DNA of 38,183 nucleotides from NCBI GenBank assembly GCA_002772115.1, contig PCRW01000068.1, positions 1 to 38,183 on the forward strand. The letters are read 5' to 3'. The position numbers and the translations under genes are program-made. Origin of the DNA: Candidatus Moranbacteria bacterium CG23_combo_of_CG06-09_8_20_14_all_35_22. Lineage in GTDB: Bacteria > Patescibacteriota > Minisyncoccia > Moranbacterales > UBA2206. Positions 6,118 through 35,712 of this stretch are shown one piece after another. Positions within the stretch are counted from its first letter, which is position 1; each line of letters starts with the position of its first letter. Under the pieces are notes generated by a model. It was not told the origin of the DNA. It did no database searches and was given only the letters and a program-made list of their open reading frames with translations.

Positions 6118-6170
6118 AATAAACTGTTGCTATTGATTATATTTTGTTTATTGTTTATAATTATTTTAGC

Positions 6171-7697: not shown

Positions 7698-7715
7698 TTA
7701 TTTTAGGATAAAAAT

Positions 7716-9248
7716 ATGCAAAATAAAAAAAATTTCTTAATTATGTTGATGCTAGTAGTTTTTCTTGGTGCGGGGCTGCGCATTTATAACTTAGGCAACA
7801 CTTCTTTTGATCGAGATGAATTCTTTGAGCTCAATTCTTCCTATGGTTATTTTAAAACAGGCACTTGGGTAGCCTGGGATTTTGGCAATGAGAAACCGTT
7901 TGAAGCGAGCTTGCAAGACAAAACTAGTACGGAGCGAGCGGAAATTTATCGCTGGCAATTGGCGCAGGTGTATAAATTTTTTGAACCGACAGAAATTTCA
8001 ACTCGCGCGATAAGTGTTTTTTGGGGAATTGTGAGTATTCTTGCCATATATTTTGTGACTCTTTCGTTTACGGGAAATTATTGGACAGCACTTTTGGCAG
8101 CTTTTTTGGTTGCAGTTGGTGAATCAGGCATAGTTTATAGTCGACGACTTCGTATGTACTCAATGCTTTTTCCTGTTTACTTAATTTTTTCTTGGTGTGT
8201 TTTCAAATTTTATGAAACGAAATATATCGGCAAGAATAAATTTTTTAAATTAGCTTCCGACAAACTAAATGTCAACTTGTTGTACATTTTGCCGGTAATA
8301 ATCACAGGGATTGTGAGCTACAATGTGCATATGCTTTCAGTGAGTATTGTGGTGGCAATTTTTTCTTTTTGTGTTTGCAGTTGGTTTTTATGGGAGAGAA
8401 AAAGTGGGAAAATAAATAAATATTCCATTACATTAGGAATGATTTTTATTGCCTATCTTATTGTGAGCTTGACTCCAAGTCTAGCTAAATTCTACAAATC
8501 ATTCAAAAAACAAGTCGAGCTTTTCAAATTTAATTATAATTATTTTACCGAATATTTTACGGATTTTATTTTTCCAATTGTCGGTTTAGTTTTGGCGCTT
8601 ATTGGAGTATGGTATTTATTTGAAAAAATGAAGAGAAAAAAAGAAGCAGTTTTTCTTTTTCTTTCGGCATTTGCCGTACTTGCTTTTGCTGTTTTCACTT
8701 GGGACAGAACTCCCTCTGGTCGTTACATCTATTTCATTCAATCTTTTGGCATAATTCTTGTGTCCGTTGGAATATACGCACTTTTCATCTATTTGACTGA
8801 TTATATTAAAAAACACAAGAAAATAGCGGGGATAATTCTGTTGATATTTTTTCTGGTGCTGATGGATTGGTCTTATTTCAAAAAAGAAAATAATATCTAT
8901 GCTCATACGAAAAATTCATATTATCCAGATTTTAAAAATATTTTTCCTTATATTTTAGAAAACAAAAAAGACGGAGATGTTTTTTTTACGCGATCATACC
9001 GTAGTTATTATTGGCAAGGAGAAAAAATAAAAGTAATTGATCTCCAGTCGCTTCCATTTGAGAAAAAAGATTGTTTGAAAAATGTCAGTGAAGTTATGGC
9101 GAAAAATCCAAAGGGCTGGTTTATTCTACCAAAAATAGATATGAATTTAATCTGCAAAGACGGGATAAAATATCTGGATGATAATTTTGAAAAAGTAAAA
9201 GATGAACATATTCCAACTTCTGTTTCAGTTTATCGTTGGGGTGGATAA
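7716..9248 (+). CDS. GT-C-fold membrane glycosyltransferase (ArnT/PMT-like), tandem paralogue B
   Basis: FDRDEFFELNSSYGYFKTGTWVAWDF. It shares long identical blocks with paralogue A (SVFWGIVSIL.IYFVTLSFTGNYW, RRLRMYSMLFP.YLIFSW, RYIYFIQSFGIILVS). Confidence 0.8.
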   Translation: MQNKKNFLIMLMLVVFLGAGLRIYNLGNTSFDRDEFFELNSSYGYFKTGTWVAWDFGNEKPFEASLQDKTSTERAEIYRWQLAQVYKFFEPTEISTRAISVFWGIVSILAIYFVTLSFTGNYWTALLAAFLVAVGESGIVYSRRLRMYSMLFPVYLIFSWCVFKFYETKYIGKNKFFKLASDKLNVNLLYILPVIITGIVSYNVHMLSVSIVVAIFSFCVCSWFLWERKSGKINKYSITLGMIFIAYLIVSLTPSLAKFYKSFKKQVELFKFNYNYFTEYFTDFIFPIVGLVLALIGVWYLFEKMKRKKEAVFLFLSAFAVLAFAVFTWDRTPSGRYIYFIQSFGIILVSVGIYALFIYLTDYIKKHKKIAGIILLIFFLVLMDWSYFKKENNIYAHTKNSYYPDFKNIFPYILENKKDGDVFFTRSYRSYYWQGEKIKVIDLQSLPFEKKDCLKNVSEVMAKNPKGWFILPKIDMNLICKDGIKYLDDNFEKVKDEHIPTSVSVYRWGG

Positions 9249-9286
9249 AAAGCAAAATTCTAAAAAATAAATTTTAAACTAAAACA

Positions 9287-10792
9287 ATGAAAAAAGAAAA
9301 AAATATTATTTTTGTTGCATTACTTTTTATACTAGTATTGGGATTTTTTTTGCGTTTTTATAAACTTGGGCAACAGCCATTTGTGACGGATGAGTTTTTG
9401 GATATTAACGCTACTTATGGATATTTTAAAACTGGGCAATGGTTGGCGTGGGATTTTAATCTAGATCAAGTGAGTGAAAATTTATATACTCAAAGAGAAG
9501 AACGCTCTTGGCTTTATCGCATTCAGGTGGCACAATTGTTTCATTTCTTTCCTTTGACAGAAGCAACGGCGAGGTCAGTGAGTGTCATTTGGGGAATAAT
9601 TAGTATTATTATTTTGTATTTTACAGCTACTTATTTTACTAAAAACAAAATCATTGGTCTTATCTCGGCTTTTCTTTTCGCAGTGAGTATCGCTGGAATA
9701 ACTTTTGATCGAATGCTTCGAATGTACGCCATGTTTTTTCCTGTTTTTCTCCTTTTTTCTTGGTTTCTCTTTCGATTTTTTGAGGAAGAATATGTGGGCA
9801 ATGTTGCAATTATGAAGCTCGTTTGGAATAAATTTGGAATAAATTTAGTCTGGTTTTTGCCAACAACATTTTTTGGATTATTGAGTTTTCATCTGCATCC
9901 GCTTACGCTTAATATTGGCGTGGTTTTTGGTGCTTATCTTGTCATCCAATCCTGCTTGGCTTTTTATCAAAAAAGAACCATATTAAATAAATATACAGTT
10001 ATTTTATTTTTAACATTGATTGGTTTGATTATAGTGTATATAAAAAATCCTCAAGTATATTCGTTTTATTCCAAAAAAGATCTGATTGCTTTTGATCATG
10101 CAAGATGGCGATATTTGCAAGCAATAGTTTCAGATTATATGAATATTATCTTGGCTTACGGATTGATTGTTTCCGGTTTTTATAATCTAAGAAAAAATAC
10201 TAAAATTAAAAAAGAATTAATTTGGCTGATTTGTTGTTTTTTTGCGATAGTTTTTTCGGCAGTTTTCTTGTGGAATGAAGTTTTTGGTTTGCGTTTTATT
10301 TTCTTTGCGATGTCTTTTGGGATAATCTTGCTTTCAAGCGGGATATATTTTTTTGCAGACAAAATTGGAAAATATTTTCTCGCGTATCAGAAAAAAGTTT
10401 TTATTGGTGTGCTAGCACTGGCACTTCTGATTGTTCCAAATTATGCTTATTTTTTTTCCAAAGAAAGTCCGTATCGAAAAGATGAAACTAAAACTGATTA
10501 TCGATCAGCTTTTCAATATTTTTTGGAGAATAAGAATGAAGGTGATGCTTTGCTTACGCGAAATTTTCGCAGTTTTTACTATAAAAACGCTAAAGCTAAA
10601 ATTATCAATAAGGAATGGAACAAAAAAATCAGTTTGGATGAATTGAATAAAATAATGATAGAAAATCCCAGTGGATGGATTGTGACAGGCGATCCAAAAG
10701 GGGACATGGAAAAAGACGCTTTGAAATATATAGAAGAAAATTCGTCAGATAAAAAAGAAATCAGTGGAGTTCAAATTTATCATTGGAATTAG
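9287..10792 (+). CDS. GT-C-fold membrane glycosyltransferase (ArnT/PMT-like), tandem paralogue C (most diverged)
   Basis: FVTDEFLDINATYGYFKTGQWLAWDF, with the same topology as A and B. Its C-terminal domain lacks the two Cys present in A and B. It overlaps the convergent gene by 4 nt. Confidence 0.8.
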   Translation: MKKEKNIIFVALLFILVLGFFLRFYKLGQQPFVTDEFLDINATYGYFKTGQWLAWDFNLDQVSENLYTQREERSWLYRIQVAQLFHFFPLTEATARSVSVIWGIISIIILYFTATYFTKNKIIGLISAFLFAVSIAGITFDRMLRMYAMFFPVFLLFSWFLFRFFEEEYVGNVAIMKLVWNKFGINLVWFLPTTFFGLLSFHLHPLTLNIGVVFGAYLVIQSCLAFYQKRTILNKYTVILFLTLIGLIIVYIKNPQVYSFYSKKDLIAFDHARWRYLQAIVSDYMNIILAYGLIVSGFYNLRKNTKIKKELIWLICCFFAIVFSAVFLWNEVFGLRFIFFAMSFGIILLSSGIYFFADKIGKYFLAYQKKVFIGVLALALLIVPNYAYFFSKESPYRKDETKTDYRSAFQYFLENKNEGDALLTRNFRSFYYKNAKAKIINKEWNKKISLDELNKIMIENPSGWIVTGDPKGDMEKDALKYIEENSSDKKEISGVQIYHWN

Positions 10793-11820: not shown

Positions 11821-13314
11821 TTATTTTTTCTTAAATATTATTTTTTTGAAAAAAGTAAAATCATCAAGGGTGAATTCTTTGAGGATAATTAAAACAAGAA
11901 GATAAATCCCAGCTAGGATAACGCTCCACAAAATGAAAAACCATTCTTGCGGAGGAAAAAAATTCGAAACAAGAAACATCAAAAATCCGGCGAAAATTAT
12001 TTTTGCAATGCTTTTTATTTGGATGAATTTTCCAAAATATCTTAGCGCATAAAATAATATTATCACAGTTATCAGTCCTGAAACAAGAGAAGTGGCGATG
12101 GCTGATCCGGAAATGCCAAATTTTAAAATCAAAATATAATTTAATCCAGCATTCAGAATCATTCCAAAAAGCGCAATGTACATTGGAATTTTGACTTTGC
12201 CGGCACCATTTAGCGCAAAACTTAGAACATAAAAAATTGTCAAAAATCCAACACCAGGAGCGAGGATTTGCATTGGCAAGACGGAATCGGCATAGCGGGA
12301 ACCAAAAAATAATTGAATGAGGGGTTCGGCATAAGCAACCATAAGAATTATTATCGGAACTAAAATCATCAGCATCAATCGAAAAGTCTGGCTCATTATC
12401 CGTTTTGTTTCTGTGAGATTATTTTGGGAAGTGGTTCTGGAAATCGAAGGCAACATTACCAAAGTTAGCGCGTAAAATAAATAATAGGGGATTCGGCCGA
12501 CAGTGAGTGAAGCGTTATAAATTCCAGTTAAATGATCATCAGCCAGCACTCCTTTGACTAGATATAAGTCCAAAGAAATCAGGAGTTCATAAAAAATCAT
12601 AAAAAGTGTCACGGGCCAAGCGTAATTAACTAGTTTTTTCCAATCAAAAAAATTCGCATTATTTTTGGGAAAATGCCGATTAATGAAAAATTTGTCAATC
12701 AGATAGGCGGTAAGAAAAACCGTAGCGGGAGCGAGAATATAGCCAGAGATGGAACCTTTCAATCCAAAAAAATAAGCTAGGCCAATAACAAAAATTATTC
12801 TGGCAAAAGAGCGAACTATTTTTAGGGTGGATTGCAGACTGAAGCGGTGAATGCCGATGTAATAATAAAGATAAAAAGAAGCGGCGGCAAAAGAGGGGAT
12901 AATCAAAGAAGAAATACGAAAAAGCGGAGTGAGAGTTGGATCACGCAAAATAAAGGATAGTACGGGAGCTAAAAGAAAAAATATTATCGTAATTATCCCA
13001 ATGAGGACAAATTGTAGTAAGGCCGCCTTTTTTTTGACACTCAAGACTAATTCTGGCTGACTTTCAAAAAAACCACTGATGTATTTACTCATAGCTGTCG
13101 GGATGCCATTGCCGATAAGCATAATGATCATTGTAGTGAGTGTCACAACTAATCCATAGCGTCCATAATCCGCGGGACCTAGCATTCGACCTAAAAATGC
13201 ATGGATAATATAACCAGAAAAATTGAAAAATATTTCTGCAATAGCCAGCCATAAAATTGAAGAAACTACGGTTTGTTTTTTTTCGCCAAAGGATGATTTT
13301 GCTAAATTTGACAT
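11821..13314 (-). CDS. Polysaccharide/oligosaccharide flippase (Wzx/MOP superfamily)
   Basis: 497 aa with about 14 TM helices and the typical polysaccharide-biosynthesis-protein layout. A 3-nt gap separates it from the downstream MPE gene, and its start overlaps the upstream gene by 13 nt. Confidence 0.75.
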   Translation of the reverse strand: MSNLAKSSFGEKKQTVVSSILWLAIAEIFFNFSGYIIHAFLGRMLGPADYGRYGLVVTLTTMIIMLIGNGIPTAMSKYISGFFESQPELVLSVKKKAALLQFVLIGIITIIFFLLAPVLSFILRDPTLTPLFRISSLIIPSFAAASFYLYYYIGIHRFSLQSTLKIVRSFARIIFVIGLAYFFGLKGSISGYILAPATVFLTAYLIDKFFINRHFPKNNANFFDWKKLVNYAWPVTLFMIFYELLISLDLYLVKGVLADDHLTGIYNASLTVGRIPYYLFYALTLVMLPSISRTTSQNNLTETKRIMSQTFRLMLMILVPIIILMVAYAEPLIQLFFGSRYADSVLPMQILAPGVGFLTIFYVLSFALNGAGKVKIPMYIALFGMILNAGLNYILILKFGISGSAIATSLVSGLITVIILFYALRYFGKFIQIKSIAKIIFAGFLMFLVSNFFPPQEWFFILWSVILAGIYLLVLIILKEFTLDDFTFFKKIIFKKK

Positions 13315-13916
13315 AATTTTTTTATTTCTTCAAAAACACTTTCTTTATTTTGATTGCCGTCAATTTTTTTCATATTCCAAAAGGAAAAATTAGCGTCATA
13401 CAATTCTTTTTTCTTTTTCAAATACTCCATTCCTTGATCAGGTTTTCGTTCGCGAGACATAATGATTTGCGGATCAGTTTGAAGATAGATCGCCAGATTT
13501 GGCTTCCTAACATCCGATGTTAGGAGTACTTTCCTAACATCGGATGTTAGGAGCGAAAGGTATTCAATATTCACAATGCTGTCATAAAAATATCGATCAC
13601 TTAATATATAATCAAATTTTTCTTTTTCCAATTTCTTGTATAATTTTTTAAAACGCCAAAGATCAATCATTAAAAATATTTTTCGTAAAAATATTTGAAA
13701 AAAATTGGCACGGATAACGCTTTTTTCTTTCTTGGACATTCGATGTCCAATTGGACATCGAATGTCCAAGAGACAACTAATTTTTTTAGCAAGGCCAAAC
13801 TCAATGGCATGAAAATAAAAGACCCGTTTATTTTGGGATTTTAGATATTCTTTTAGTAATTCTATTTGAGTGGATTTTCCAGAGCCATCTAGGCTGGAGA
13901 TTGTGATTAATTTCAT
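13302..13916 (-). CDS. Tmk-like P-loop NMP-kinase-fold protein carrying two palindromic in-frame inserts
   Basis: P-loop SLDGSGKSTQ, SDRYFYDS (DRY-type motif) and PNLAIYLQTDP (compare Tmk PDLTLYLD). The TMP-binding REPGGT-type motif is not visible, so true thymidylate kinase activity is uncertain. Confidence 0.6.
   Translation of the reverse strand: MKLITISSLDGSGKSTQIELLKEYLKSQNKRVFYFHAIEFGLAKKISCLLDIRCPIGHRMSKKEKSVIRANFFQIFLRKIFLMIDLWRFKKLYKKLEKEKFDYILSDRYFYDSIVNIEYLSLLTSDVRKVLLTSDVRKPNLAIYLQTDPQIIMSRERKPDQGMEYLKKKKELYDANFSFWNMKKIDGNQNKESVFEEIKKLCQI
13504..13557. repeat. Tandem 27-nt repeat (x2), each unit a 9-bp-stem hairpin, in-frame in the Tmk-like CDS
   Basis: ttcctaacatc[c]gatgttaggagtact / ttcctaacatc[g]gatgttaggagcgaa. 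The two hairpins differ only in the central loop base, so they are reverse complements of each other. They encode LLTSDVRKV-LLTSDVRKP. Confidence 0.9.
13731..13770. repeat. 40-nt perfect nested palindrome in-frame in the Tmk-like CDS
   Basis: cttggacattcgatgtccaa|ttggacatcgaatgtccaag. The whole segment is self-complementary and each half is itself an 8-bp-stem hairpin. It encodes ...LLDIRCPIGHRMS... Confidence 0.9.
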
Positions 13917-19108: not shown

Positions 19109-20233
19109 TTACACTTTACTATTTACTGATTTTATAATTTCTTCTAAATATCTCTGCGAAATTTTTTCCCAAGTGAAATTTTCCTCAACATATTTTCCGG
19201 CCATTTTGCCAAAATTTTTGGCAAATTCTGGTCCGGCGGAAAAAATAGCCTGGATTTTCTTGACCCATTGTTCGGTGTTTTCGCTTTCAACCAGAAAACC
19301 ATTCTTGCCATCCTTAATTGCTTCCGCCAAACCTTGATAATTAGAAGCAACAACTATTCGCTCACATGCTCCCGCCTCAATAACATTAATTCCAAAACCT
19401 TCCACTGATTCAGGATAGGGAATATTTGGAGATACAACTAAATCAACAGTATTCAAAAGCACTTCCAAATCTTTTTGTGGTAGATTGGGCATTAACTTTA
19501 CTCTGTTTTCTAAACCATTTTCCTTGATGGCCTTTTCGCAATCGGAAAAATTATCCGGATCGCCAGCGGTGTTTTTGGCCACTCGATATCCAGTTGCAAT
19601 CATAAGTGTATCTTCGGAGAGTTTTGGCATAACATTTTTTATAAACCAAGCCGTGCCTTTATGCGGAACAAATCTGCCAAGACGCAAAATAATTTTTTTG
19701 TTAGTAATATCGGAACCCCACAACGCAGACAAATCTTGTCGAGAAAATTCCTTTTTTAAATTTTCGATAAAAACCCCATTAGGAATGAAAACGCAATTTT
19801 CTTTGGGAATTCCAATTTTAACTGCTTCTTCGATAGTAAAATTTCCAATCATAAAAAGTTTGTCAAGTTTTTTGAGAGAGGGAATGTTAATCGCTTTGTA
19901 AATTTTTGGTAAATTTCCCTTTTTATAAGCAAAGGTTATATCTAATCCATGCACAACAGAAAAAAACTTTTTCTTAGGATGAAAAATTTTCAAAGCAAAA
20001 GCAATTGGCGCCAAAACGCCATTACCCACAAGACAAGCGTCATAATTCATCATTAAAAAAAATGCCCGTAGGAAAGTTATGGGTATAAAAACAGGAAGCC
20101 ACCATTTGCCTCGGCCATTGGCGATAATTTTAACAGTAGCAATTTTTGAAAGCCCTTGAGCTAAATTGTAATTTTGACTTTCCACTCCACCAAGAATTGG
20201 AGGATAGGAATGGGAGATAAAAAGAATATTCAT
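19109..20233 (-). CDS. GT4-family glycosyltransferase
   Basis: N-terminus ILFISHSYPPILGGVE. EX7E region ESVEGFGINVIEAGACERIVVAS. Confidence 0.8.
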   Translation of the reverse strand: MNILFISHSYPPILGGVESQNYNLAQGLSKIATVKIIANGRGKWWLPVFIPITFLRAFFLMMNYDACLVGNGVLAPIAFALKIFHPKKKFFSVVHGLDITFAYKKGNLPKIYKAINIPSLKKLDKLFMIGNFTIEEAVKIGIPKENCVFIPNGVFIENLKKEFSRQDLSALWGSDITNKKIILRLGRFVPHKGTAWFIKNVMPKLSEDTLMIATGYRVAKNTAGDPDNFSDCEKAIKENGLENRVKLMPNLPQKDLEVLLNTVDLVVSPNIPYPESVEGFGINVIEAGACERIVVASNYQGLAEAIKDGKNGFLVESENTEQWVKKIQAIFSAGPEFAKNFGKMAGKYVEENFTWEKISQRYLEEIIKSVNSKV

Positions 20234-20237
20234 ATTT

Positions 20238-20346
20238 ATGATGCAAATACACGAATCTTATGCTAATCTACGAATATGCAAATAATAGCGATTCGCATAT
20301 TTGTGTATTTGCATGAAAGCAATTCGCGTCATTCGTATTATAGTTT
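20238..20346. repeat. 109-nt dispersed repeat, copy 1 (fills the spacer between GT2 and GT4)
   Basis: tgatgcaaatacacgaatcttatgctaatctacgaatatgcaaataatagcgattcgcatatttgtgtatttgcatgaaagcaattcgcgtcattcgtattatagttta. I counted 5 differences from copy 2. Confidence 0.85.
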
Positions 20347-21321
20347 ATTATATTTATCCTTCTTCCATTGATAGAAAAATTCTTCGGTGAGTTGGCGGGT
20401 GGATTTTATCATATCGGCGATGAGAGCAAAAATTATCAGTTGGATTCCAAGAAACATGGAGATTGAAGAAAAAACAATATAATTGAGATAGGGTCGAATT
20501 TTGAAATCTTGGAAATAGAAAAAAAGAAAAAATATAAAACCAATTAAACCTAAAATCATAAAAAATATTCCTGGCCAGCCGAAAAATTTTAGCGGTCGGA
20601 CATCGCGGACTGCTTTGAGAATAATTTTTGTAGAATTACTTACAAATTTGAAAATAGATTTGGTGATTTTGGCTTGGCGATTGTCAAAATAAGTGACTGT
20701 GATTGGTACCCATTTCAATTTCAAATTTTTTCCAATAGCGTCAATTATCGTATCTTGAGTATAAGTAAAATACAGATTAGTCAAATTTAGCCGAAGAAGT
20801 GCTTCTCGAGAGTGAGCACGAAAACCACAAGTTAGGTCATTAGTTTTGTAATTTAGGAAAAAACCAATTACAGAAGCGGCAAAACGATTGAAGAAACTTC
20901 GTACCCACGGAATGTTTTTCGCTTTTTGTTCTCCAAAACGATTAGCAATTACTATATCTGCTTCTCCTTTTAGCACTGGCAAGAGAAGTTTAGGAATATC
21001 ATTAGGATCAAATTGTCCATCCGCATCAATATTTACCATAAAATCAGCGCCATTTTTGAGTGAGCTTTCCACTGCTTGTTTGAAAGAATAAGCCAAACGG
21101 CGATTAGGTTTATAAGAAACGACAATATCAGCGCCATTTTCTTTGGCAACTCGGGCAGTGCCATCAGTTGAGCCGTCGTTTACTACTTGAATTAATTTTT
21201 CATCTATCACGGTGCCTTCATTAGAATAAAAATTATGGGCAAAACTTTTTTTGATATTTTGAATTGTTTTTCCCAAATCCTTTTCTTCATTATAAGCGGG
21301 AATGTTAATGATTAGTTTCAT
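20338..21321 (-). CDS. GT2 polyprenyl-phosphate sugar synthase-like glycosyltransferase (Dpm1/GtrB/ArnC type)
   Basis: INIPAYNEEKDLGKTI, VNDGSTDGT and the DxD motif NIDADGQ are present, plus two C-terminal TM helices. This is the usual donor-making partner of GT-C enzymes. Confidence 0.8.
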   Translation of the reverse strand: MKLIINIPAYNEEKDLGKTIQNIKKSFAHNFYSNEGTVIDEKLIQVVNDGSTDGTARVAKENGADIVVSYKPNRRLAYSFKQAVESSLKNGADFMVNIDADGQFDPNDIPKLLLPVLKGEADIVIANRFGEQKAKNIPWVRSFFNRFAASVIGFFLNYKTNDLTCGFRAHSREALLRLNLTNLYFTYTQDTIIDAIGKNLKLKWVPITVTYFDNRQAKITKSIFKFVSNSTKIILKAVRDVRPLKFFGWPGIFFMILGLIGFIFFLFFYFQDFKIRPYLNYIVFSSISMFLGIQLIIFALIADMIKSTRQLTEEFFYQWKKDKYNKL

Positions 21322-21329
21322 AATAATTG

Positions 21330-21438
21330 TGATGCAAATCCACGAATCTTATGCTAATCCACGAATATGCAAATAAGAGTGATTCGCATATTTGTATATT
21401 TGCATGAAAGCAATTCGCGTCATTCGTATTATAGTTTA
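21330..21438. repeat. 109-nt dispersed repeat, copy 2 (fills the spacer between the small ORF and GT2)
   Basis: It has the same sequence and orientation as copy 1. Together the two copies directly bracket the GT2 gene at 20338-21321. Confidence 0.85.
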
Positions 21439-21785: not shown

Positions 21786-23003
21786 ATGAATAAAATAAAA
21801 ATAGGAATCAATGCCAGTTATCTTAGAAAGCCGAACACTGGTATCGGACAAGTGACAGCCAACTTTTTGAAAATGTTGGCAAGAGACAAAAATAATAACT
21901 TTGAATTTATTTTGTATTTAGAGGAAGAAATTCCAAAGGATTTCAAGCTTCCTAAAAATTTTACTAAAAAAATATTTTTGCCAATTTATAAGCGCGATGA
22001 TTTGATTCGAAAAATTTGGTGGGAAAAATTTCTTTTGCCGAGACAAGTCAAAAAAGACGGGTGTGATGTTTTTGTCAGTATGTACCAATGTCCCACTGTT
22101 TTCACAACGCTTAAGACGCCAAGCGTCTTGAATTCTGGACGCTTGGCGTCTTTGCGTCATATAATGCTAGTGCATGATATAATTCCAAAATTATTTCCCA
22201 AGTATTTGGATAATTTCAGAAAAAAAGTATATTGGAAATTGACGGAATATGGGATAAAAAAGGCGCACAAGATTATCGCTGTTTCCAAAAGAACGGAAAA
22301 AGATTTGATTGAACACTTGAATATCGGCGCAGACAGAATTACTACCAATTATATAGATGTCGATGAATGTTATAAGGTAGAGACGCAAAATTTTGCGTCT
22401 CTACGAGAGCGAAATATTTTAAAGAAATACAAATTAAATTCAGGATATATCTTAGCTGGTGGGGGATATGAGGTGCGAAAAAATGTCGAGGGTGTGGTGC
22501 GAGCCTATAAATTACTGTTAGAAAAAAACAAAAAAGAAAATTTTTTGCCAAATTTTCCGAAGTTAGCGATATACGGAAAGGTTTTGTCGGAAAGTTTGAG
22601 TCTGGCAACGCCGATAGAAAAAATATTGAGAGAATTAAATTTGACGAAAGATGTGATTCTTTTGGGTGAAGTCCCACAAAAAGACTTGCCGGCGCTGTTT
22701 AGTCATGCTATTGTGTTTGCTTACCCTTCGTTTTATGAGGGTTTTGGCATGCAAATTTTGGAAGCCATGAATGTGGGTACGCCTGCCATCACTTCCAAAG
22801 TTTCTTCACTGCCAGAAGTAGGCGGAGACAGTGTGTTATATTGTAATCCTGATGAAATTTCTGACATCGCAATGGTTTTGAAAAATATTTTAACGAATTA
22901 TGATTTACGAGAACAACTGAAAACTCGTGGCCAAGAACGCGCCAAACAATTTTCCTGGGAAAAATTTAGCGAGAAGATTTTAAATATAATTGAAGAAATG
23001 TAA
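21786..23003 (+). CDS. GT4-family glycosyltransferase carrying two palindromic in-frame inserts
   Basis: The motif YPSFYEGFGMQILEAMNVGTPAITS matches the paralogue at 24765-25925 (FPSFYEGFGMPIIEAMSLGVPTIVSD). Confidence 0.85.
   Translation: MNKIKIGINASYLRKPNTGIGQVTANFLKMLARDKNNNFEFILYLEEEIPKDFKLPKNFTKKIFLPIYKRDDLIRKIWWEKFLLPRQVKKDGCDVFVSMYQCPTVFTTLKTPSVLNSGRLASLRHIMLVHDIIPKLFPKYLDNFRKKVYWKLTEYGIKKAHKIIAVSKRTEKDLIEHLNIGADRITTNYIDVDECYKVETQNFASLRERNILKKYKLNSGYILAGGGYEVRKNVEGVVRAYKLLLEKNKKENFLPNFPKLAIYGKVLSESLSLATPIEKILRELNLTKDVILLGEVPQKDLPALFSHAIVFAYPSFYEGFGMQILEAMNVGTPAITSKVSSLPEVGGDSVLYCNPDEISDIAMVLKNILTNYDLREQLKTRGQERAKQFSWEKFSEKILNIIEEM
22113..22152. repeat. Near-perfect nested palindrome (double hairpin around a GAATTC centre), in-frame in a GT4 CDS
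   Basis: aagacgccaagcgtctt-gaattc-tggacgcttggcgtctt. It encodes ...LKTPSVLNSGRLASLRH..., which has no counterpart in the paralogue at 24765-25925. Confidence 0.85.
22377..22404. repeat. 28-nt perfect palindrome, copy 1, in-frame in a GT4 CDS
   Basis: gtagagacgcaaaattttgcgtctctac. It encodes VETQNFASLR. Confidence 0.9.
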
Positions 23004-24698
23004 ATGAATTTATTTTTTGAAAAAATAATTAATAACTTCAACAAGCCAAAAAATTGGCTTCTTTTGGCGAATGTGGTTTTGGTTTTTGTTTTGATAGTTT
23101 GCAATAATTTGGGAATTATTCCTTTGCGAATGGGGGATTTTGTTTTTTTTGCGATTTTAGTTTTGGGCTTGGCGCTGTATCGTCCTGGGTGGGCCTTTTT
23201 ATTTTTTGTTGGCACGATTGCATTGGAAAACATCAATTTGGCACCGGCCGAACTTGGAATTGCCATTCGACCCTATCAATTTATCGGCACGCTCACGATC
23301 ACGGCAATTATAACTCGATTACTTTCTGGAAAATTAAATTTCAAATTGGCAAAATTAAATTTTGTAGATTATCTAATTCTAATTATTACAGCGTCTAGTT
23401 TTGTAAGTGCGTTTATTTCTGCGGTAAAGATGCAAAATTTTGCGTCTCTACGGTTGGCGATAATTCTGGCGATATTTTCCGCGCTATATTTTTTAGTGCG
23501 AAATTATGTTCAAAATTTAGAAGATCTCAAAAAAATTATTCCTTTTTTTCTAAGTTCGGCGGTTGTCGTCGTGCTTTATGGCATTTGGCAAAATATTTGG
23601 TTTTTGAAAGGATTAAAAAGTTTTGAAACAATGTTGGGACGATCAAACGCAACTTTTTTCGAAGCGGATTGGCTGGGAATGTACTTAGTGTTGATAATAT
23701 CGATTTTAATAATTCTTTTTTCTGCCCTCTCCTCAACTCCCGCCTACCGGCGAGGCAGGCTCTCCCGATTACGGGCGAGGGGGTCATTGAAATTTCCTTC
23801 TCTCCCTTTGGGAGAGATATCCCGATGTAATCATCGGGACAGAGAGGGAAAGGGCGTATTAATAAAAATATTCTTATTTATATTTTTAACCTTATCTTTT
23901 ATTTTATTAATTCTTACTGTTTCACGCAGTGCTTGGCTCGGGGCATTTGCAATGACATTTATTTTTCTTTTCGCTATTCTAACAAATTTAAAATTTTATC
24001 TAAAACATTGGCAATGGAAAAAAACTATTCAAATGAAATTAATTATATTTCCGGCACTGTTAGTTGCAATTGGTGCAATTTATATTTTCCATCTGACTAA
24101 TTTCCAATTATTTAATCGAGTGCAATCAACTGGATCAGGAATGCAAAAAATTACCATTTCTTGTGATGCAAGGAACGCAAATTTGCATTCCCTACCGAAA
24201 GAAATTGAAAATATTTCTGAATTAGAAAAATATAATTGCCGGCATATAAATTTAGAAGAAATAGATTTTGAAAAAGCTAAAGGGAAATATGTTAGTGAAA
24301 TTTATCGTAAAGATCCAAATGTAAACATAAGAAAAGAAATTTATCAGAAATCTTGGCAAGAAATTAGAAATCATTGGATATTGGGAATTGGTTGGGGAAA
24401 TATTTCCAAAATATTAGGCAATGACGAAAAGGGGACGCCCTTGAATTCTTCCAATATATTTTTGGAAGTTTGGCTGGGCACTGGAATTTTAGGTTTTGCG
24501 TCTTTCGTTATTATGCTATCGTATATATTAGTAAGGGCAGTGAGAGATTATTATTTATCAAAAGATGATTTGCAAAAAATCGTCAGTTTATTTTTAATTA
24601 TTTCCTGGTTTGCAATTATTATCCCCAATCTTTTCAATGCCGGAATATTTTTAGGATTTTTGTGGGTTTGGCTGGGCATAGTACATATAAAAAAATAG
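23004..24698 (+). CDS. O-antigen ligase/polymerase-family (Wzy_C) membrane protein carrying three repeat-derived inserts
   Basis: Multi-TM protein with LTVSRSAWLGAF and a large outer loop followed by GIGWGN. Its ATG abuts the stop of the upstream GT4 gene. Confidence 0.7.
   Translation: MNLFFEKIINNFNKPKNWLLLANVVLVFVLIVCNNLGIIPLRMGDFVFFAILVLGLALYRPGWAFLFFVGTIALENINLAPAELGIAIRPYQFIGTLTITAIITRLLSGKLNFKLAKLNFVDYLILIITASSFVSAFISAVKMQNFASLRLAIILAIFSALYFLVRNYVQNLEDLKKIIPFFLSSAVVVVLYGIWQNIWFLKGLKSFETMLGRSNATFFEADWLGMYLVLIISILIILFSALSSTPAYRRGRLSRLRARGSLKFPSLPLGEISRCNHRDREGKGVLIKIFLFIFLTLSFILLILTVSRSAWLGAFAMTFIFLFAILTNLKFYLKHWQWKKTIQMKLIIFPALLVAIGAIYIFHLTNFQLFNRVQSTGSGMQKITISCDARNANLHSLPKEIENISELEKYNCRHINLEEIDFEKAKGKYVSEIYRKDPNVNIRKEIYQKSWQEIRNHWILGIGWGNISKILGNDEKGTPLNSSNIFLEVWLGTGILGFASFVIMLSYILVRAVRDYYLSKDDLQKIVSLFLIISWFAIIIPNLFNAGIFLGFLWVWLGIVHIKK
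23424..23451. repeat. 28-nt palindrome, copy 2 (2 mismatches), in-frame in the O-antigen-ligase-like CDS
   Basis: gtaaagatgcaaaattttgcgtctctac. It encodes VKMQNFASLR. Confidence 0.9.
23722..23856. repeat. GC-rich multi-hairpin block of about 135 nt, in-frame in the O-antigen-ligase-like CDS
   Basis: It contains cccgcctaccggcgaggcagg (23739-59), and the hairpins cccg-atta-cggg (23764-75), tctctccc-ttt-gggagaga (23799-817) and cccgatg-taat-catcggg (23821-38). It encodes STPAYRRGRLSRLRARGSLKFPSLPLGEISRCNHRDREGKG. Confidence 0.85.
24171..24192. repeat. Imperfect 22-nt palindrome in-frame in the O-antigen-ligase-like CDS
   Basis: aggaacgcaaa|tttgcattccc (9 of 11 arm positions pair). Its gcaaa-tttgc core is related to the 28-nt palindrome. 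It encodes ARNANLHSL. Confidence 0.6.
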
Positions 24699-24705
24699 GA
24701 AGGTT

Positions 24706-24752
24706 AAATTCGAGGTTTCACCTCGAGTAACTCGAGGTGAAACCTCGAATTT
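24706..24752. repeat. 47-nt perfect nested palindrome (double hairpin), intergenic
   Basis: aaattcgaggtttcacctcgagt-a-actcgaggtgaaacctcgaattt. Each arm contains the hairpin cgaggt-nnn-acctcg. It lies between the ligase-like stop (24698) and the GT4 start (24765). Confidence 0.9.
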
Positions 24753-24764
24753 ATTTAAATCATT

Positions 24765-32559: not shown

Positions 32560-32567
32560 TTAACCGA

Positions 32568-32601
32568 TGCGAAACTACGAATCGTATGCGAATCTACGAA
32601 C
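32568..32601. repeat. T(A/G)CGAA(N) heptamer array upstream of pyrH
   Basis: tgcgaaa at 32568, tacgaat at 32576, tgcgaat at 32587 and tacgaac at 32595. Confidence 0.75.
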
Positions 32602-34412: not shown

Positions 34413-34426
34413 ATAAATTGCTATAG

Positions 34427-34451
34427 GGATCCTGAAATAAATTCAGGATGA
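34427..34451. repeat. 25-bp inverted-repeat arm (left) flanking the nuclease gene; itself a hairpin or operator-like palindrome
   Basis: gatcctgaaataaattcaggatgac is the exact reverse complement of 35656-35680. Confidence 0.85.
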
Positions 34452-34488
34452 CAAAAACACAAGTTCAGGATGATTCCACTAAGCGGAA

Positions 34489-35643
34489 TCATTTTTTCTT
34501 CACGCTTAAACTTTTGGTTTCTTTGTTGAGAACTTTGGCTTTTTCAATTTCCTTTTTGGCATCAAATGGTAAGACACCCAGAATATTTCGCAGTGCAATG
34601 CCATCTACTTTCAACACATCTTCCCAATGATCAAGTGGTTCCAAAACTTCACGGAGTTTTTTCTCGTCATATTTATAAGTTTTGCGAAGTGACCTCGCAA
34701 TGACGCCTTGTGGCCCAAAAACTCGCTCCACGCCTTCTTGATCCATATAACTCAAGATATCCTCTTGCAGTTTTGCTAAACGATCTTTGGTAATATTTAT
34801 CGCTGATTTCAAATCTATGTATTCTTCGATAGATTTGTTAATTTCTTCTGTGTCGATGTGACGCAGTTCTTTGAATTTATGTTTCCACATTGGGCAAAGA
34901 TTTTGGTATCCGCACCAATCGCAAAGAGGGGACATAGTCGGCTCAAAATTACCAGCCTCAATGACTTTTATAGTGTCTAAAAAGAGTTGTTCACTTTTTT
35001 TCAATTGTTCTAAGGTTCTTGTGGCGGATAATTTCATGCCATGTTTCAAATAATATAAGCTAACTTTTATTTTATCTAAATTTTGAATTTCTTTGGGATA
35101 ATTAGAAAGAAATGCTTGCAGATAAACAGAGAGTTGAATGTCGTTGTCAACTTTTTCTTGATTAGGCATTTTCTTGGTAGTTTTATAATCAATAATTTCA
35201 AAACCATCGTCAGTTTTGTCTATGCGGTCGATGATGCCAGAGATGATATGTCTTTCTTGGGCTTGCCCCGCGGTCGCCGTAGGTGACTTTGCGGGGCCTA
35301 TTTCAATTTGAAAACGGGATTCCAAATTGATAATATTAAAATCAGCCGGATTATTTTTTTGATAATAATCTTGAATAATTTTGACGCCTTGGGAAAAGGC
35401 GGCACGCTCCTCAGTTTCTCCGTCGAAAACTGCTGGGTTCCAGGAATTTCCAAAATGTTCCATAGCTTGATCCAAAGTAGGGGAGAGAATTCCCGGTGTA
35501 TGGATAAATTTCATTGTTTCATGAATTGTCGAGCCAAAAACCGCCTCCTTGGATTTAGGAACTTTAATTCGATCAATATTTTGAAATTTATATTTCAGCG
35601 GGCAATTCTGATAGGCATCAAAAGCACTGTAGGATATACGCAT
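34489..35643 (-). CDS. PD-(D/E)XK nuclease, Cas4/AddB-like with a 4-Cys cluster
   Basis: N-terminal SAFDAYQNCPLKYKF. Nuclease core GIIDRID ... EIIDYKT. CDWCGYQNLCP, together with the N-terminal Cys, fits an Fe-S staple. A C-terminal extension of about 130 aa follows. Confidence 0.75.
   Translation of the reverse strand: MRISYSAFDAYQNCPLKYKFQNIDRIKVPKSKEAVFGSTIHETMKFIHTPGILSPTLDQAMEHFGNSWNPAVFDGETEERAAFSQGVKIIQDYYQKNNPADFNIINLESRFQIEIGPAKSPTATAGQAQERHIISGIIDRIDKTDDGFEIIDYKTTKKMPNQEKVDNDIQLSVYLQAFLSNYPKEIQNLDKIKVSLYYLKHGMKLSATRTLEQLKKSEQLFLDTIKVIEAGNFEPTMSPLCDWCGYQNLCPMWKHKFKELRHIDTEEINKSIEEYIDLKSAINITKDRLAKLQEDILSYMDQEGVERVFGPQGVIARSLRKTYKYDEKKLREVLEPLDHWEDVLKVDGIALRNILGVLPFDAKKEIEKAKVLNKETKSLSVKKK
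35266..35296. repeat. GC-rich hairpin in-frame in the nuclease CDS
   Basis: ccccgc-ggtcgccgtaggtgacttt-gcgggg. It encodes ...AKSPTATAGQAQ... in an otherwise AT-rich gene. Confidence 0.7.
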
Positions 35644-35653
35644 AAGAAATAAA

Positions 35654-35712
35654 TTGTCATCCTGAATTTATTTCAGGATCTCAAGAGATGCTGAAACAAG
35701 TTCAGCATGACA
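35654..35712. repeat. Right inverted-repeat arm plus a second related palindrome, enclosed by a 7-bp outer stem (double-hairpin module)
   Basis: ttgtcat-cctgaatttatttcagg-atctcaagag-atgctgaaacaagttcagcat-gacaa. Both inner palindromes share CTGAA-N5-TTCAG. Confidence 0.8.

What the first reader, a model, noticed from the sequence alone, without database searches (positions are those of the whole stretch)
22377..23451. The same 28-nt palindrome in two adjacent genes yields the shared peptide QNFASLR
gtagagacgcaaaattttgcgtctctac (perfect, 22377-22404, in GT4) and gtaaagatgcaaaattttgcgtctctac (2 mismatches, 23424-23451, in the O-antigen-ligase-like gene) are both read in the same frame. The result is that unrelated proteins share (E/K)(T/M)QNFASLR. 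A third, weaker relative (aggaacgcaaatttgcattccc, 24171-24192) lies 700 nt further on.

Because the element is a palindrome, it gives the same peptide in either orientation. This property may favour in-frame survival.
Basis: seen in the sequence. Interest (0 to 1): 0.65.

Follow-up and report, generated by a model that had tools for sequence, protein, structure and literature searches.

The report
In-frame REP palindromes in envelope genes
The repeated 28-base palindrome is a known kind of tiny mobile DNA hairpin (a "double-foot" GTAG REP, tied to RayT/TnpA-REP transposases) that sits in-frame inside two neighbouring cell-envelope genes of a Moranbacteria (CPR) genome, and the identical 28-mer turns up in bacteria of a dozen phyla.

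Summary
GTAGAGACGCAAAATTTTGCGTCTCTAC is perfect at 22377-22404 (GT4 gene) and 26/28 at 23424-23451 (Wzy_C gene). Both copies are read in the same phase, giving V(E/K)(T/M)QNFASLR.

It is not ancestral coding sequence. Only the 5 closest of 120 GT4 orthologues and 3 of 120 Wzy_C orthologues carry it. The same 28-mer, with unrelated flanks, occurs in at least 118 stretches of species-representative genomes from about 12 phyla.

It matches the published "double-foot" long REP (5' GTAG, hairpin, CTAC 3') tied to subclass 2.4 TnpA-REP/RAYT transposases. Those genes carry this very 28-mer in-frame between their HuH and Y motifs and are flanked by further copies, including in CPR genomes.

Two results go beyond the papers I read. 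Different REP subfamilies have colonised the same loops repeatedly in different Moranbacteria lineages. The net length change at both window sites is +9 nt, not +28.

No RAYT lies in the window.

Verdict: new member of a known kind; moderate interest.

The parts
22377..22404 (.). REP copy 1: perfect 28-nt double-foot GTAG REP (GTAG + AGACGCAAAATTTTGCGTCT + CTAC). It is read in phase 0 as VETQNFASL (GT4 residues 198-206).
   Evidence: The identical 28-mer is at the orthologous site in L088, and a decayed copy is in L132. It is absent from 115 of 120 orthologues. It maps to a coil and helix start with lowered pLDDT in the predicted GT4 structure.
23424..23451 (.). REP copy 2: 26/28 copy with two transitions in the left arm, read in phase 0 as VKMQNFASL (Wzy_C residues 141-149).
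   Evidence: It is perfect in the orthologue L088. The site is empty in L132, L133 and L134. The peptide is present in only 3 of 120 orthologues.
24168..24195 (.). REP copy 3: decayed 28-nt double-foot REP of a sister subfamily, 25/28 to GTAGGGAACGCAAATTTGCGTTCCCTAC, read as ARNANLHSL.
   Evidence: L134 has the perfect 28-mer at the same codons. Other orthologues carry phase-2 REP peptides (RDAINRVST, RDALQCVST) at this site.
21786..23003 (+). Host gene 1: GT4-family glycosyltransferase (405 aa). The REP lies between the Glyco_transf_4 match (19-187) and the Glycos_transf_1 match (221-384).
23004..24698 (+). Host gene 2: Wzy_C / O-antigen-ligase-family membrane protein (564 aa). REP 2 lies in a short stretch between two hydrophobic segments. 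REP 3 lies in a variable loop inside the span matched by the Wzy_C model (residues 294-502).

Best explanation
The 28-mer is a "double-foot" long REP. It has a 5' GTAG foot, a 20-nt perfect hairpin core, and the foot's reverse complement CTAC at the 3' end. This is the type that Quentin et al. 2018 associate with subclass 2.4 TnpA-REP (RAYT) HuH/Y1 transposases.

Shown here:
- The element has the defining anatomy.
- The identical sequence is dispersed with unrelated flanks across many phyla.
- RAYT-like genes carry the same 28-mer in-frame between their HuH and Y motifs and are flanked by further perfect copies. This holds in CPR genomes too.
- The window copies are derived, not ancestral.
- They sit in variable loops of their host proteins.

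Inferred from published work on E. coli, Stenotrophomonas and Marinomonas TnpA-REP:
- The hairpin forms on single-stranded DNA.
- GTAG acts as the guide tetranucleotide.
- The RAYT cleaves at a nearby CT (or CA) dinucleotide and transfers strands, so copies spread in trans.

Copies that land in genes survive only where the reading frame is restored and the extra residues fall in a tolerant loop. The GT4 copy came first, since a more distant orthologue shares it. The Wzy_C copy 1 kb downstream came later. Without a RAYT shown in this genome, the window copies may now be inactive relics. Copy 2 and copy 3 are already decaying.
For: Anatomy: GTAG, a 20-nt palindromic core and CTAC.

Dispersal: 132 core matches in 118 stretches of species-representative genomes. 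Both feet are intact in 63 and one foot in 48, although the search pattern left the feet free. Flanks are unrelated. Hosts include Bacteroidota, Chloroflexota, Cyanobacteriota, Ignavibacteria, Myxococcota, Acidobacteriota, Spirochaetota, Pseudomonadota, Elusimicrobiota, Goldbacteria and several CPR lineages, plus the isolates Nibrella viscosa and Marivirga lumbricoides.

Uniform length: every double-foot palindrome found in the loci is exactly 28 nt, in many subfamilies.

RAYT link:
- RAYT-like genes in L080, L082 and L086 contain the 28-mer between NH[VI]H and YIxNNP.
- They hit NCBIfam NF047646, REP-associated tyrosine transposase, at E = 3e-18 and 1e-15.
- 93 of the 120 best homologues carry ETQNFAS, nearly all between HuH and Y.
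- Within three diverged RAYT genes the REP is 26/27 nt identical, including 9/9 third codon positions, against 22% identity at third positions elsewhere.

CPR REPtrons: the Magasanikbacteria GW2011_GWC2_37_14 contig has a RAYT with one internal REP, one 13 nt after its stop and one about 5 kb upstream. Two further perfect copies lie on other contigs of that genome. The same arrangement occurs on contigs whose RAYT is named as Roizmanbacteria or Patescibacteria, or whose neighbouring proteins are named as Torokbacteria.

Derived state.

Literature: PMC6006769 sections 12 and 23 (double foot, subclass 2.4, in-frame REPs inside tnpA-REP); PMC3733652 section 15 (intragenic GTAG REPs, TAG stop donation); PMC8266576 section 28 (GTAG as guide, CT/CA cleavage).
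Against: - No RAYT gene is in the 38-kb window or in any Moranbacteria locus I held. Activity in this genome is therefore not shown.
- Only 2 (+1) copies are visible here, so "repetitive in this genome" is untested.
- The associated proteins score 48-66 bits against NF047646, below its 80-bit cut-off, and are below threshold for Pfam Y1_Tnp.
- A plain 28-nt insertion would shift the frame. The observed net change is +9 nt at both window sites, and 0 to +7 codons at the REP sites I compared in other genes and other orthologues. The integration step is therefore not a simple paste, or it was followed by deletions.
- RAYT-driven REP dissemination has not been worked out even for model systems (PMC8266576 abstract and section 29).
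Confidence: 0.8

Rival explanations
1. The copies spread by homology- or foot-guided replacement (gene conversion or template-directed repair against another REP copy) at sites that already resemble part of the REP. A RAYT cut-and-paste of a fixed 28-nt unit is not the mechanism. This would explain the small and variable net length changes and the repeated use of the same sites.
For: - Net change is +3 codons at both window sites, not 28 nt.
- In Wzy_C the REP's ...ASL(R) overlies the ancestral (A/I)S(L/F)K. The empty L134 site already reads AAT AAA ATT TTA AGT TTA, which contains the REP's central AAAATTTT.
- In IleRS of L113 and L094 the REP's 3' foot is the non-canonical TCTGTAC. It overlies the S-V-H codons of the conserved SVHL motif, as seen in L117 and in the solved structure 8c8w.
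- Five or more separate Wzy_C lineages carry REPs of different subfamilies at the identical site.
Against: - The resemblances are short and were noticed after the fact. AT-rich CPR coding sequence often contains AAAATTTT-like runs.
- The loops are variable, so the alignments are ambiguous.
- L117's V-E before SVHL could be the scar of a deleted REP rather than a target.
- Selection for tolerant loops alone can produce recurrent sites.
- No empty/filled pair of near-identical strains was found.
Confidence: 0.15
2. The hairpins are kept in these two genes because they do something in cis. They could act as an mRNA structure that slows translation or shapes decay within the envelope-glycan operon, or as a binding site for a dimeric regulator.
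For: - The hairpin is strong (-20.6 kcal/mol, z = -6).
- The GT4 copy is 28/28 identical between the window and L088, although the genes are about 83% identical. A flanking block of about 70 nt is also identical.
- REPs elsewhere are credited with roles in mRNA stability and translation (PMC3733652, PMC8266576).
Against: - The same 28-mer lies in unrelated genes and in intergenic DNA in a dozen phyla.
- Copy 2 and copy 3 in the window, and the GT4 copy in L132, are decaying at about the rate of their genes.
- Most orthologues do without it.
- It is not terminator-like and matches no Rfam family.
Confidence: 0.07
3. The two palindromes are crossover sites for a recombinase that inverts or deletes the 1047-bp segment between them, giving phase variation of the glycosyltransferase and ligase.
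For: There are two near-identical palindromic sites 1047 bp (349 codons) apart in surface-glycan genes. Deletion between them would give an in-frame GT4-Wzy fusion.
Against: - Inversion gives a stop 3 codons after the REP.
- Seven independent assemblies of this organism, and the orthologue L088, all show the same arrangement.
- No recombinase is nearby.
- Most genomes carry single, scattered copies.
Confidence: 0.02
4. Chance or ancestral coding similarity, or an assembly or adapter artefact.
For: None beyond the short length of the element.
Against: - 0 of 100 shuffles gave any match.
- It is absent from most orthologues.
- It is present in independent JGI and ENA assemblies, in isolate genomes and as mutated copies at orthologous sites. 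An artefact would not do this.
Confidence: 0.01

Closest known systems
Double-foot long REP sequences associated with subclass 2.4 TnpA-REP/RAYT (Quentin, Siguier, Chandler, Fichant 2018, PMC6006769)
   Same: 5' GT[AG]G foot, long perfect hairpin and C[TC]AC 3' foot. In-frame copies lie inside the tnpA-REP gene between HuH and Y, and further copies flank the gene. The associated proteins have NH[IFV]H, WQ and YIxNNP motifs. Distribution is in Cyanobacteria and Bacteroidetes plus scattered phyla.
   Different: The sections of that paper I read do not mention CPR/Patescibacteria hosts, one 28-mer kept identical across phyla, or repeated colonisation of the same loops of host genes. In this window no tnpA-REP is nearby.
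Intragenic GTAG-tagged REPs (Di Nocera, De Gregorio, Rocco 2013, PMC3733652)
   Same: GTAG-tagged hairpins lie entirely inside ORFs and encode extra residues. The GTAG foot donates TAG stop codons. Hosts include DNA polymerase III alpha and tRNA synthetases, also seen here (DnaE in L059, IleRS in L094, L113 and L117).
   Different: Their families are mostly single-foot, with 6-9 bp stems and 2-3 nt loops, in Proteobacteria and a few other phyla. Here the element has a 12-bp stem including the feet, is exactly 28 nt long, and occurs as the same sequence in many phyla.
E. coli REP / TnpA-REP (RayT) and Pseudomonas REPIN-RAYT systems
   Same: A GTAG guide lies 5' of a hairpin, with an HuH/Y1 enzyme related to IS200/IS605 TnpA and a REPtron arrangement.
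   Different: Those REPs are imperfect (bulged) or form REPIN dimers. They are extragenic, high in copy number, lineage-specific and mostly vertically inherited. The proteins here score below the NF047646 equivalog cut-off.
Rickettsia palindromic elements (RPE)
   Same: Palindromic repeats inserted in-frame into many unrelated protein-coding genes, adding a peptide segment in tolerated positions.
   Different: From my own knowledge, RPE-1 is roughly 100-150 bp, restricted to Rickettsia, and has no known transposase. Here the element is 28 nt, cross-phylum and tied to a RAYT. No sequence comparison with RPEs was run.

Membership tests
GTAG REP, double-foot type (subclass 2.4 associated) | 5' GT[AG]G tetranucleotide directly at the foot of the hairpin | tested here: met
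   GTAG at 22377-22380. Copy 2 has GTAA and copy 3 GCAA, both decayed.
GTAG REP, double-foot type (subclass 2.4 associated) | Reverse complement C[TC]AC at the 3' end | tested here: met
   CTAC ends all three window copies. 63 of 132 copies elsewhere have both feet intact although the search pattern left the feet free.
GTAG REP, double-foot type (subclass 2.4 associated) | Long stable stem-loop | tested here: met
   12-bp stem, -20.6 kcal/mol, z = -6.05.
GTAG REP, double-foot type (subclass 2.4 associated) | Many dispersed copies with unrelated flanks within one genome | tested here: inconclusive
   Met in other genomes: at least 5 perfect copies on 3 contigs of Magasanikbacteria GW2011_GWC2_37_14, and at least 10 contigs of Anaerolineae R24_80. 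For the window's own genome only 38 kb is available, with 2 copies plus 1 sister copy.
GTAG REP, double-foot type (subclass 2.4 associated) | Cognate tnpA-REP gene flanked by, or containing, the same REP (REPtron) | tested here: inconclusive
   Met elsewhere, including CPR (L161, L145, L148, L189, L155, L086, L080, L082). Not found in the window or in the Moranbacteria loci held.
GTAG REP, double-foot type (subclass 2.4 associated) | Cleavage and strand transfer of the single-stranded REP by its TnpA-REP | not testable with these tools
   Needs the in vitro assay of PMC8266576.
TnpA-REP subclass 2.4 (for the associated proteins) | Motifs NH[IFV]H (HuH), WQ and YIxNNP (Y), and a length of about 190 aa | tested here: met
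   L080, L082, L086, L078 and L161 have NH[VI]H, WQ and YIxNNP at 187-211 aa. L155 has YIIDNP and L145/L148 have Y[VI]RDNP.
NCBIfam NF047646 REP-associated tyrosine transposase (equivalog) | Whole-protein score at or above the 80-bit cut-off | tested here: not met
   48-66 bits, E = 1e-12 to 3e-18. They are homologues, not equivalogs of the E. coli-type RayT.
REPIN | Two REPs in inverted orientation separated by a short spacer, moving as one unit | tested here: not met
   The window copies are singlets 1047 nt apart in different genes.
MITE | 70-300 bp element with terminal inverted repeats and a target-site duplication | tested here: not met
   The element is 28 nt, and no duplication flanks either copy.
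Intrinsic terminator | GC-rich hairpin followed by a T-run | tested here: not met
   The scan does not call the REPs. The real terminator-like hairpin is at 24705-24753.
CRISPR repeat | Regularly spaced array of repeats with unique spacers | tested here: not met
   One or two copies per locus at irregular spacing.

The most novel reading that the evidence does not exclude
REPs of this family do not paste in as fixed 28-nt units. They overwrite short stretches that already resemble a REP foot or half-site, so they behave as in-frame "codon cassettes" that repeatedly re-colonise the same surface loops of orthologous proteins. The master copy embedded in the transposase's own coding sequence, kept identical at silent sites, is what lets one 28-mer seed genomes across a dozen phyla, including ultra-small CPR bacteria.
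Probability: 0.2. Interest if true: 0.65.

Novelty: new member of a known kind. Interest (0 to 1): 0.4.

Why it matters
The finding explains an odd shared peptide as the footprint of a REP/RAYT system. It extends that system to CPR/Patescibacteria genomes, which are usually seen as streamlined.

It also yields two concrete data sets that bear on an open question: how REPs actually move and choose their targets. The first is one 28-mer kept identical across phyla, including at silent sites inside its own transposase gene. The second is repeated in-frame colonisation of the same loops by different REP subfamilies.

For annotation, peptides such as VETQNFASL, RDAKFCVST, VETRLIASL and RDAINRVST should be read as REP-encoded segments. 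They are not conserved protein motifs.

Tried and rejected
- Full-text search for the 28-mer, its core and the peptides QNFASL, DAINRVS and RDAKFCVS found no paper.
- Rfam at a permissive threshold gave only sub-threshold noise away from the REPs.
- The terminator scan does not call the REPs.
- Pfam missed the RAYT domain at default settings, and the solved-structure sequence search found nothing for the Marivirga RAYT. NCBIfam was needed.
- Inversion between the two copies as a phase-variation switch was rejected because it gives immediate stops.
- CRISPR array was rejected because there is no regular spacing.
- Adapter or assembly artefact was rejected on independent assemblies, isolates and mutated orthologous copies.
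- The core of the sister REP (GGGAACGCAAATTTGCGTTCCC) has no exact match in viral contigs.
- DNA for orthologue P0156 could not be fetched.
- A profile built from 120 RAYTs found no RAYT in the window or in the CPR loci fetched by the genome scan. The CPR RAYTs came only from the metagenome scan.
- I could not define a constant insertion unit. Net changes of 0, +1, +3, +5/+7 and about +10 codons were seen at different sites.
- My first frame tally counted copies near ORF ends as coding. It was replaced by the stricter tally.
Full report
**Observation.** The window holds GTAGAGACGCAAAATTTTGCGTCTCTAC as a perfect 28-nt palindrome at 22377-22404. A 26/28 copy (GTAAAGATGCAAAATTTTGCGTCTCTAC) lies at 23424-23451. 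No shuffle of the window gave any match at up to 3 mismatches. The first copy lies in a 405-aa GT4 glycosyltransferase (21786-23003). The second lies in the adjoining 564-aa Wzy_C/O-antigen-ligase-family gene (23004-24698). Both copies begin on a codon boundary and read KVETQNFASLRE and AVKMQNFASLRL. The perfect copy folds at -20.6 kcal/mol (z = -6.05) and the second at -14.7 kcal/mol (z = -3.27).

**Context.** The organism is a Moranbacteria-type CPR bacterium, with window GC of 33.5%. The best named homologues are Candidatus Moranbacteria proteins. The same locus, with an identical GT4 protein, was assembled independently in at least seven JGI and ENA metagenomes. The surrounding genes form a cell-envelope glycan cluster: GT2 and GT4 glycosyltransferases, a polysaccharide flippase-family (Polysacc_synt) gene, Wzy_C and LytR-CpsA-Psr.

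**The element is not local.** I scanned one genome per GTDB species for the 20-nt core, with two degenerate positions and the outer four bases on each side left free.
- Among 132 core matches in 118 loci, 63 carry both GTAG and CTAC, 48 carry one foot and 21 carry neither.
- Chance would give each foot 1 time in 256. The flanks are unrelated.
- Record titles cover Bacteroidota, Ignavibacteria, Chloroflexota, Cyanobacteriota, Myxococcota, Acidobacteriota, Spirochaetota, Alpha- and Gammaproteobacteria, Elusimicrobiota, Goldbacteria and KSB1.
- They also cover Moran-, Falkow-, Magasanik-, Peri- and Parcubacteria, and the isolates Nibrella viscosa JCM 17925 and Marivirga lumbricoides CGMCC 1.10832.
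- Five IMG/VR viral contigs also carry the exact 28-mer.
- I scanned all fetched loci for GT[AG]G...C[TC]AC palindromes of 24-34 nt. Only 28-nt elements turned up, in many subfamilies that differ in the inner stem and loop, such as GTAGAGACGCGCCATGGCGCGTCTCTAC and GTAGGGGCGTATTGCAATACGCCCCTAC.

**What it is.** Clustering the ORFs of the loci showed one recurrent small protein of 180-210 aa with NH[VI]H, WQ and YIxNNP motifs. [quoted passage not shown]
- These proteins hit NCBIfam NF047646 (REP-associated tyrosine transposase) at E = 3e-18 and 1e-15, below the equivalog cut-off.
- JGI names many homologues "REP element-mobilizing transposase RayT".
- Ninety-three of the 120 best homologues carry ETQNFAS, nearly always between HuH and Y. 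This fraction is inflated, because the query profile contained the peptide.
- Quentin et al. 2018 describe exactly this arrangement (PMC6006769). Subclass 2.4 TnpA-REP (NH[IFV]H, WQ, YIxNNP; Cyanobacteria, Bacteroidetes and scattered phyla) is associated with long REPs. These include a "double foot" type with 5' GT[AG]G and 3' C[TC]AC, found flanking the gene and, uniquely, inserted in-frame within it between HuH and Y.
- Di Nocera et al. 2013 had already reported GTAG REPs lying entirely inside ORFs, including DNA polymerase and tRNA synthetase genes. They also reported GTAG feet supplying TAG stop codons (PMC3733652).
- Corneloup et al. 2021 give the biochemical model. GTAG is equivalent to the IS200/IS605 guide tetranucleotide, and cleavage occurs at CT or CA. 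They state that the dissemination mechanisms remain poorly understood (PMC8266576).

**CPR genomes have the system.** The window has no RAYT, and none was in the CPR loci from the genome scan. I therefore scanned metagenome contigs for the 28-mer followed by the FGPQ-coding motif. This gave 86 contigs, many with GC of 28-36%. Exact-sequence look-ups named four CPR sources:
- Candidatus Roizmanbacteria (PIU37171.1);
- a Patescibacteria group bacterium (MEK7598102.1);
- Candidatus Magasanikbacteria GW2011_GWC2_37_14 (KKQ27812.1);
- through its neighbouring proteins, a Candidatus Torokbacteria contig from the same Ga00666xx sample series as the window.

These genes show REPtron-like layouts. In the Magasanikbacteria contig there is one perfect REP inside the gene, one 13 nt after its stop and one about 5 kb upstream. 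In L145, L148 and L189 a perfect REP sits at or just before the start, plus the internal one. The same Magasanikbacteria genome has further perfect copies on two other contigs (L045, L107). Whether this Moranbacteria species has a RAYT remains untested.

**DNA-level constraint.** In the three RAYT genes of L080, L082 and L086, proteins 50-57% identical, the REP codons are 26/27 nt identical in all three. This includes 9/9 third positions. Elsewhere in the genes overall identity is 44% and third-position identity is 22%. The element is thus conserved as DNA, not as protein. Because it rides inside the transposase gene, it travels with that gene on horizontal transfer. This link between the embedded copy and the cross-phylum identity is my inference.

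**Are the window copies insertions?** Yes, in the sense of derived states.
- GT4: only the five closest of 120 orthologues carry (V/I)E(T/A)QNFASLRE. The consensus linker is YKK-xxSxxxxxxVLK-KYKL.
- Wzy_C: only three of 120 orthologues carry the peptide at residue 141. The usual sequence is ...NA-PD-KIASFK-LAII.
- L088 (Moranbacteria RIFOXYA12_FULL_35_19) has both copies perfect at the orthologous sites.
- L132 (GCA_000991855) has a decayed GT4 copy (ATAGAGGCGCAAAATTTTGCGTCTCTGC) and an empty Wzy_C site. L133 and L134 also have empty Wzy_C sites. The simplest order is therefore that the GT4 copy is older than the Wzy_C copy, though loss from L132 is not excluded.
- The window and L088 GT4 genes are about 83% identical, yet the REP is 28/28 identical. 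A roughly 70-nt flanking block is also identical, so this may reflect local recombination rather than selection.
- Copy 2 has two transitions relative to L088.

**The third element.** In L088 the core is a perfect 20-nt palindrome. In L134 the same codons hold a perfect 28-nt double-foot REP, GTAGGGAACGCAAATTTGCGTTCCCTAC, read as VGNANLRSL. The window copy is 25/28 identical to it. Other Wzy_C orthologues carry phase-2 REP peptides (RDAINRVST, RDALQCVST, LDARSCVST) at this same site.

**Recurrent sites.**
- In Wzy_C, at least five separate lineages carry REPs at exactly the residue-141 site. The subfamilies differ (VETQNFASL, VETQHAASL, VETRLIASL, METHNFASL, and a double VETRLIASL+HFASLR). Each lineage has REP-less nearest relatives.
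- The GT4 linker likewise holds REPs at three different offsets and of several subfamilies in other lineages. In L133 it holds an unrelated GC-rich element.
- The predicted GT4 structure (mean pLDDT 93) places residues 198-203 in coil and 204-206 at the start of a helix. Confidence drops locally to 77-85.
- Permissive loops under selection explain this recurrence. Target preference may add to it.

**Length problem.** Twenty-eight is not a multiple of three.
- Relative to REP-less orthologues, both window sites have gained 3 codons.
- At the REP sites I compared in other genes and other orthologues, the net change ranges from 0 to about +10 codons.
- In IleRS of L113 and L094, the REP's right foot is the non-canonical TCTGTAC. 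It overlies the S-V-H codons of the conserved SVHL motif, seen in L117 and in solved IleRS 8c8w.
- In Wzy_C, the REP's ASL overlies the ancestral (A/I)S(L/F).
- This hints at integration next to, or replacement of, foot-like sequence. The evidence is anecdotal, and I treat it as a rival or refinement rather than a result.

**Frames.** Phase 0 reads VETQNFASL, phase 1 reads TAG, and phase 2 reads RDAKFCVS(T). The tally of 132 copies is:
- 31 inside ORFs of at least 200 aa, more than 40 aa from the earliest start and more than 20 aa from the stop (22 in phase 0, 9 in phase 2);
- 5 ending the host ORF with their TAG;
- 3 in C-terminal tails;
- 10 near possible starts;
- 83 in no long ORF.

Hosts include AcrB-type transporters, a U32 peptidase, class II ribonucleotide reductase, aconitase B, HlyD, IcmF-like mutases, a restriction-modification methylase, DnaE and IleRS. 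ORFs were called mechanically, so the coding status of some is uncertain.

**Rejected alternatives.**
- Inversion between the two copies gives a stop after three codons, and no rearranged assembly exists.
- The REPs are not terminator-like and match no Rfam family.
- Chance, ancestral coding sequence and artefact are excluded by the results above.

**Verdict.** It belongs to a described class: double-foot GTAG REPs of subclass 2.4 TnpA-REP, already known to sit in-frame in genes. It is therefore a new member of a known kind. The added value is threefold: the CPR host, one 28-mer kept identical across phyla, and repeated same-site in-frame colonisation with a net gain of only 9 nt.

Noticed in passing
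window 22113-22152: A 40-nt near-perfect palindrome (arms AAGACGCCAAGCGTCTTGAA / TTCTGGACGCTTGGCGTCTT, 18/20) lies in-frame in GT4 and encodes roughly KTPSVLNSGRLAS. Its stem AAGACGC/GCGTCTT resembles the REP core stem. It maps to the lowest-confidence loop of the predicted structure (pLDDT 55). Most orthologues lack it. L088 has a different, roughly 90-nt insert at the same site. The 17-nt half is found only in this organism's loci.
   Followed up: partly
window 23725-23860: A GC-rich, roughly 135-nt in-frame insert in Wzy_C (…SSTPAYRRGRLSRLRARGSLKFPSLPLGEISRCNHRDREGKG…) folds very strongly (-63.6 kcal/mol, z = -4.0). L088 has an unrelated element (GTCATTCTGAGCG…GGATGAC type) at the same site. 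The loop is therefore a hot spot for several families of small elements.
   Followed up: partly
window 13505-13552 and 13725-13776 (thymidylate kinase gene 13302-13916, minus strand): Two more palindromic dimers sit in-frame inside the tmk gene: TCCTAACATCCGATGTTAGGA with its inverted copy, and TTGGACATTCGATGTCCAA with its inverted copy. The first gives the repeated peptide LLTSDVRKVLLTSDVRK.
   Followed up: no
window 20232-20347 and 21323-21438 (partial third copy 32566-32600): A 116-nt direct repeat, 94% identical, lies in the intergenic regions next to two minus-strand glycosyltransferase genes. A 35-nt core (GATGCAAATACACGAATCTTATGCTAATCTACGAA) recurs 11 kb away.
   Followed up: no
window 34421-34454 and 35654-35687: 34-nt inverted repeats (91% complementary) bracket a 384-aa gene of the PD-(D/E)XK / Cas4-like nuclease superfamily (34489-35643, minus strand). 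This could be a small mobile or regulated unit.
   Followed up: no
window 24705-24753: A perfect hairpin with 24-nt arms followed by a T-rich tail lies just after the Wzy_C stop. It is the one convincing terminator-like structure in the region.
   Followed up: no
L088 (MFSE01000020), between the GT4 and Wzy_C genes and inside both: The sister species has about 500 extra bases between the two genes, which directly abut in the window. It also has several further in-frame GC-rich palindromic inserts: in the GT4 N-terminal region, at window position about 24008, and at the Wzy_C C-terminus. One of these families also fills the GT4 linker in L133.
   Followed up: partly
L013, L036, L091, L105 (Anaerolineae R24_80, Muribaculaceae RGIG2290): Composite forms occur in which two 20-nt hairpin cores are separated by 16-52 nt and share one outer GTAG...CTAC pair. 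There are also partial duplications (L041) and back-to-back copies (L051, L070, L105). These resemble BIME- or REPIN-like mosaics of this REP.
   Followed up: no
L035 (REP at 629) and L098 (REP at 2134): Two Bacteroidota genomes carry the REP in phase 0 at about the same residue (662-666) of an IcmF-like fused methylmalonyl-CoA mutase/MeaB protein. This is another possible recurrent or inherited intragenic site.
   Followed up: no
window 6144-10792: Three tandem paralogous genes of about 500-517 aa share 70-80% identical DNA blocks at a spacing of about 1540 nt (families D1-D4, D8, D9).
   Followed up: no
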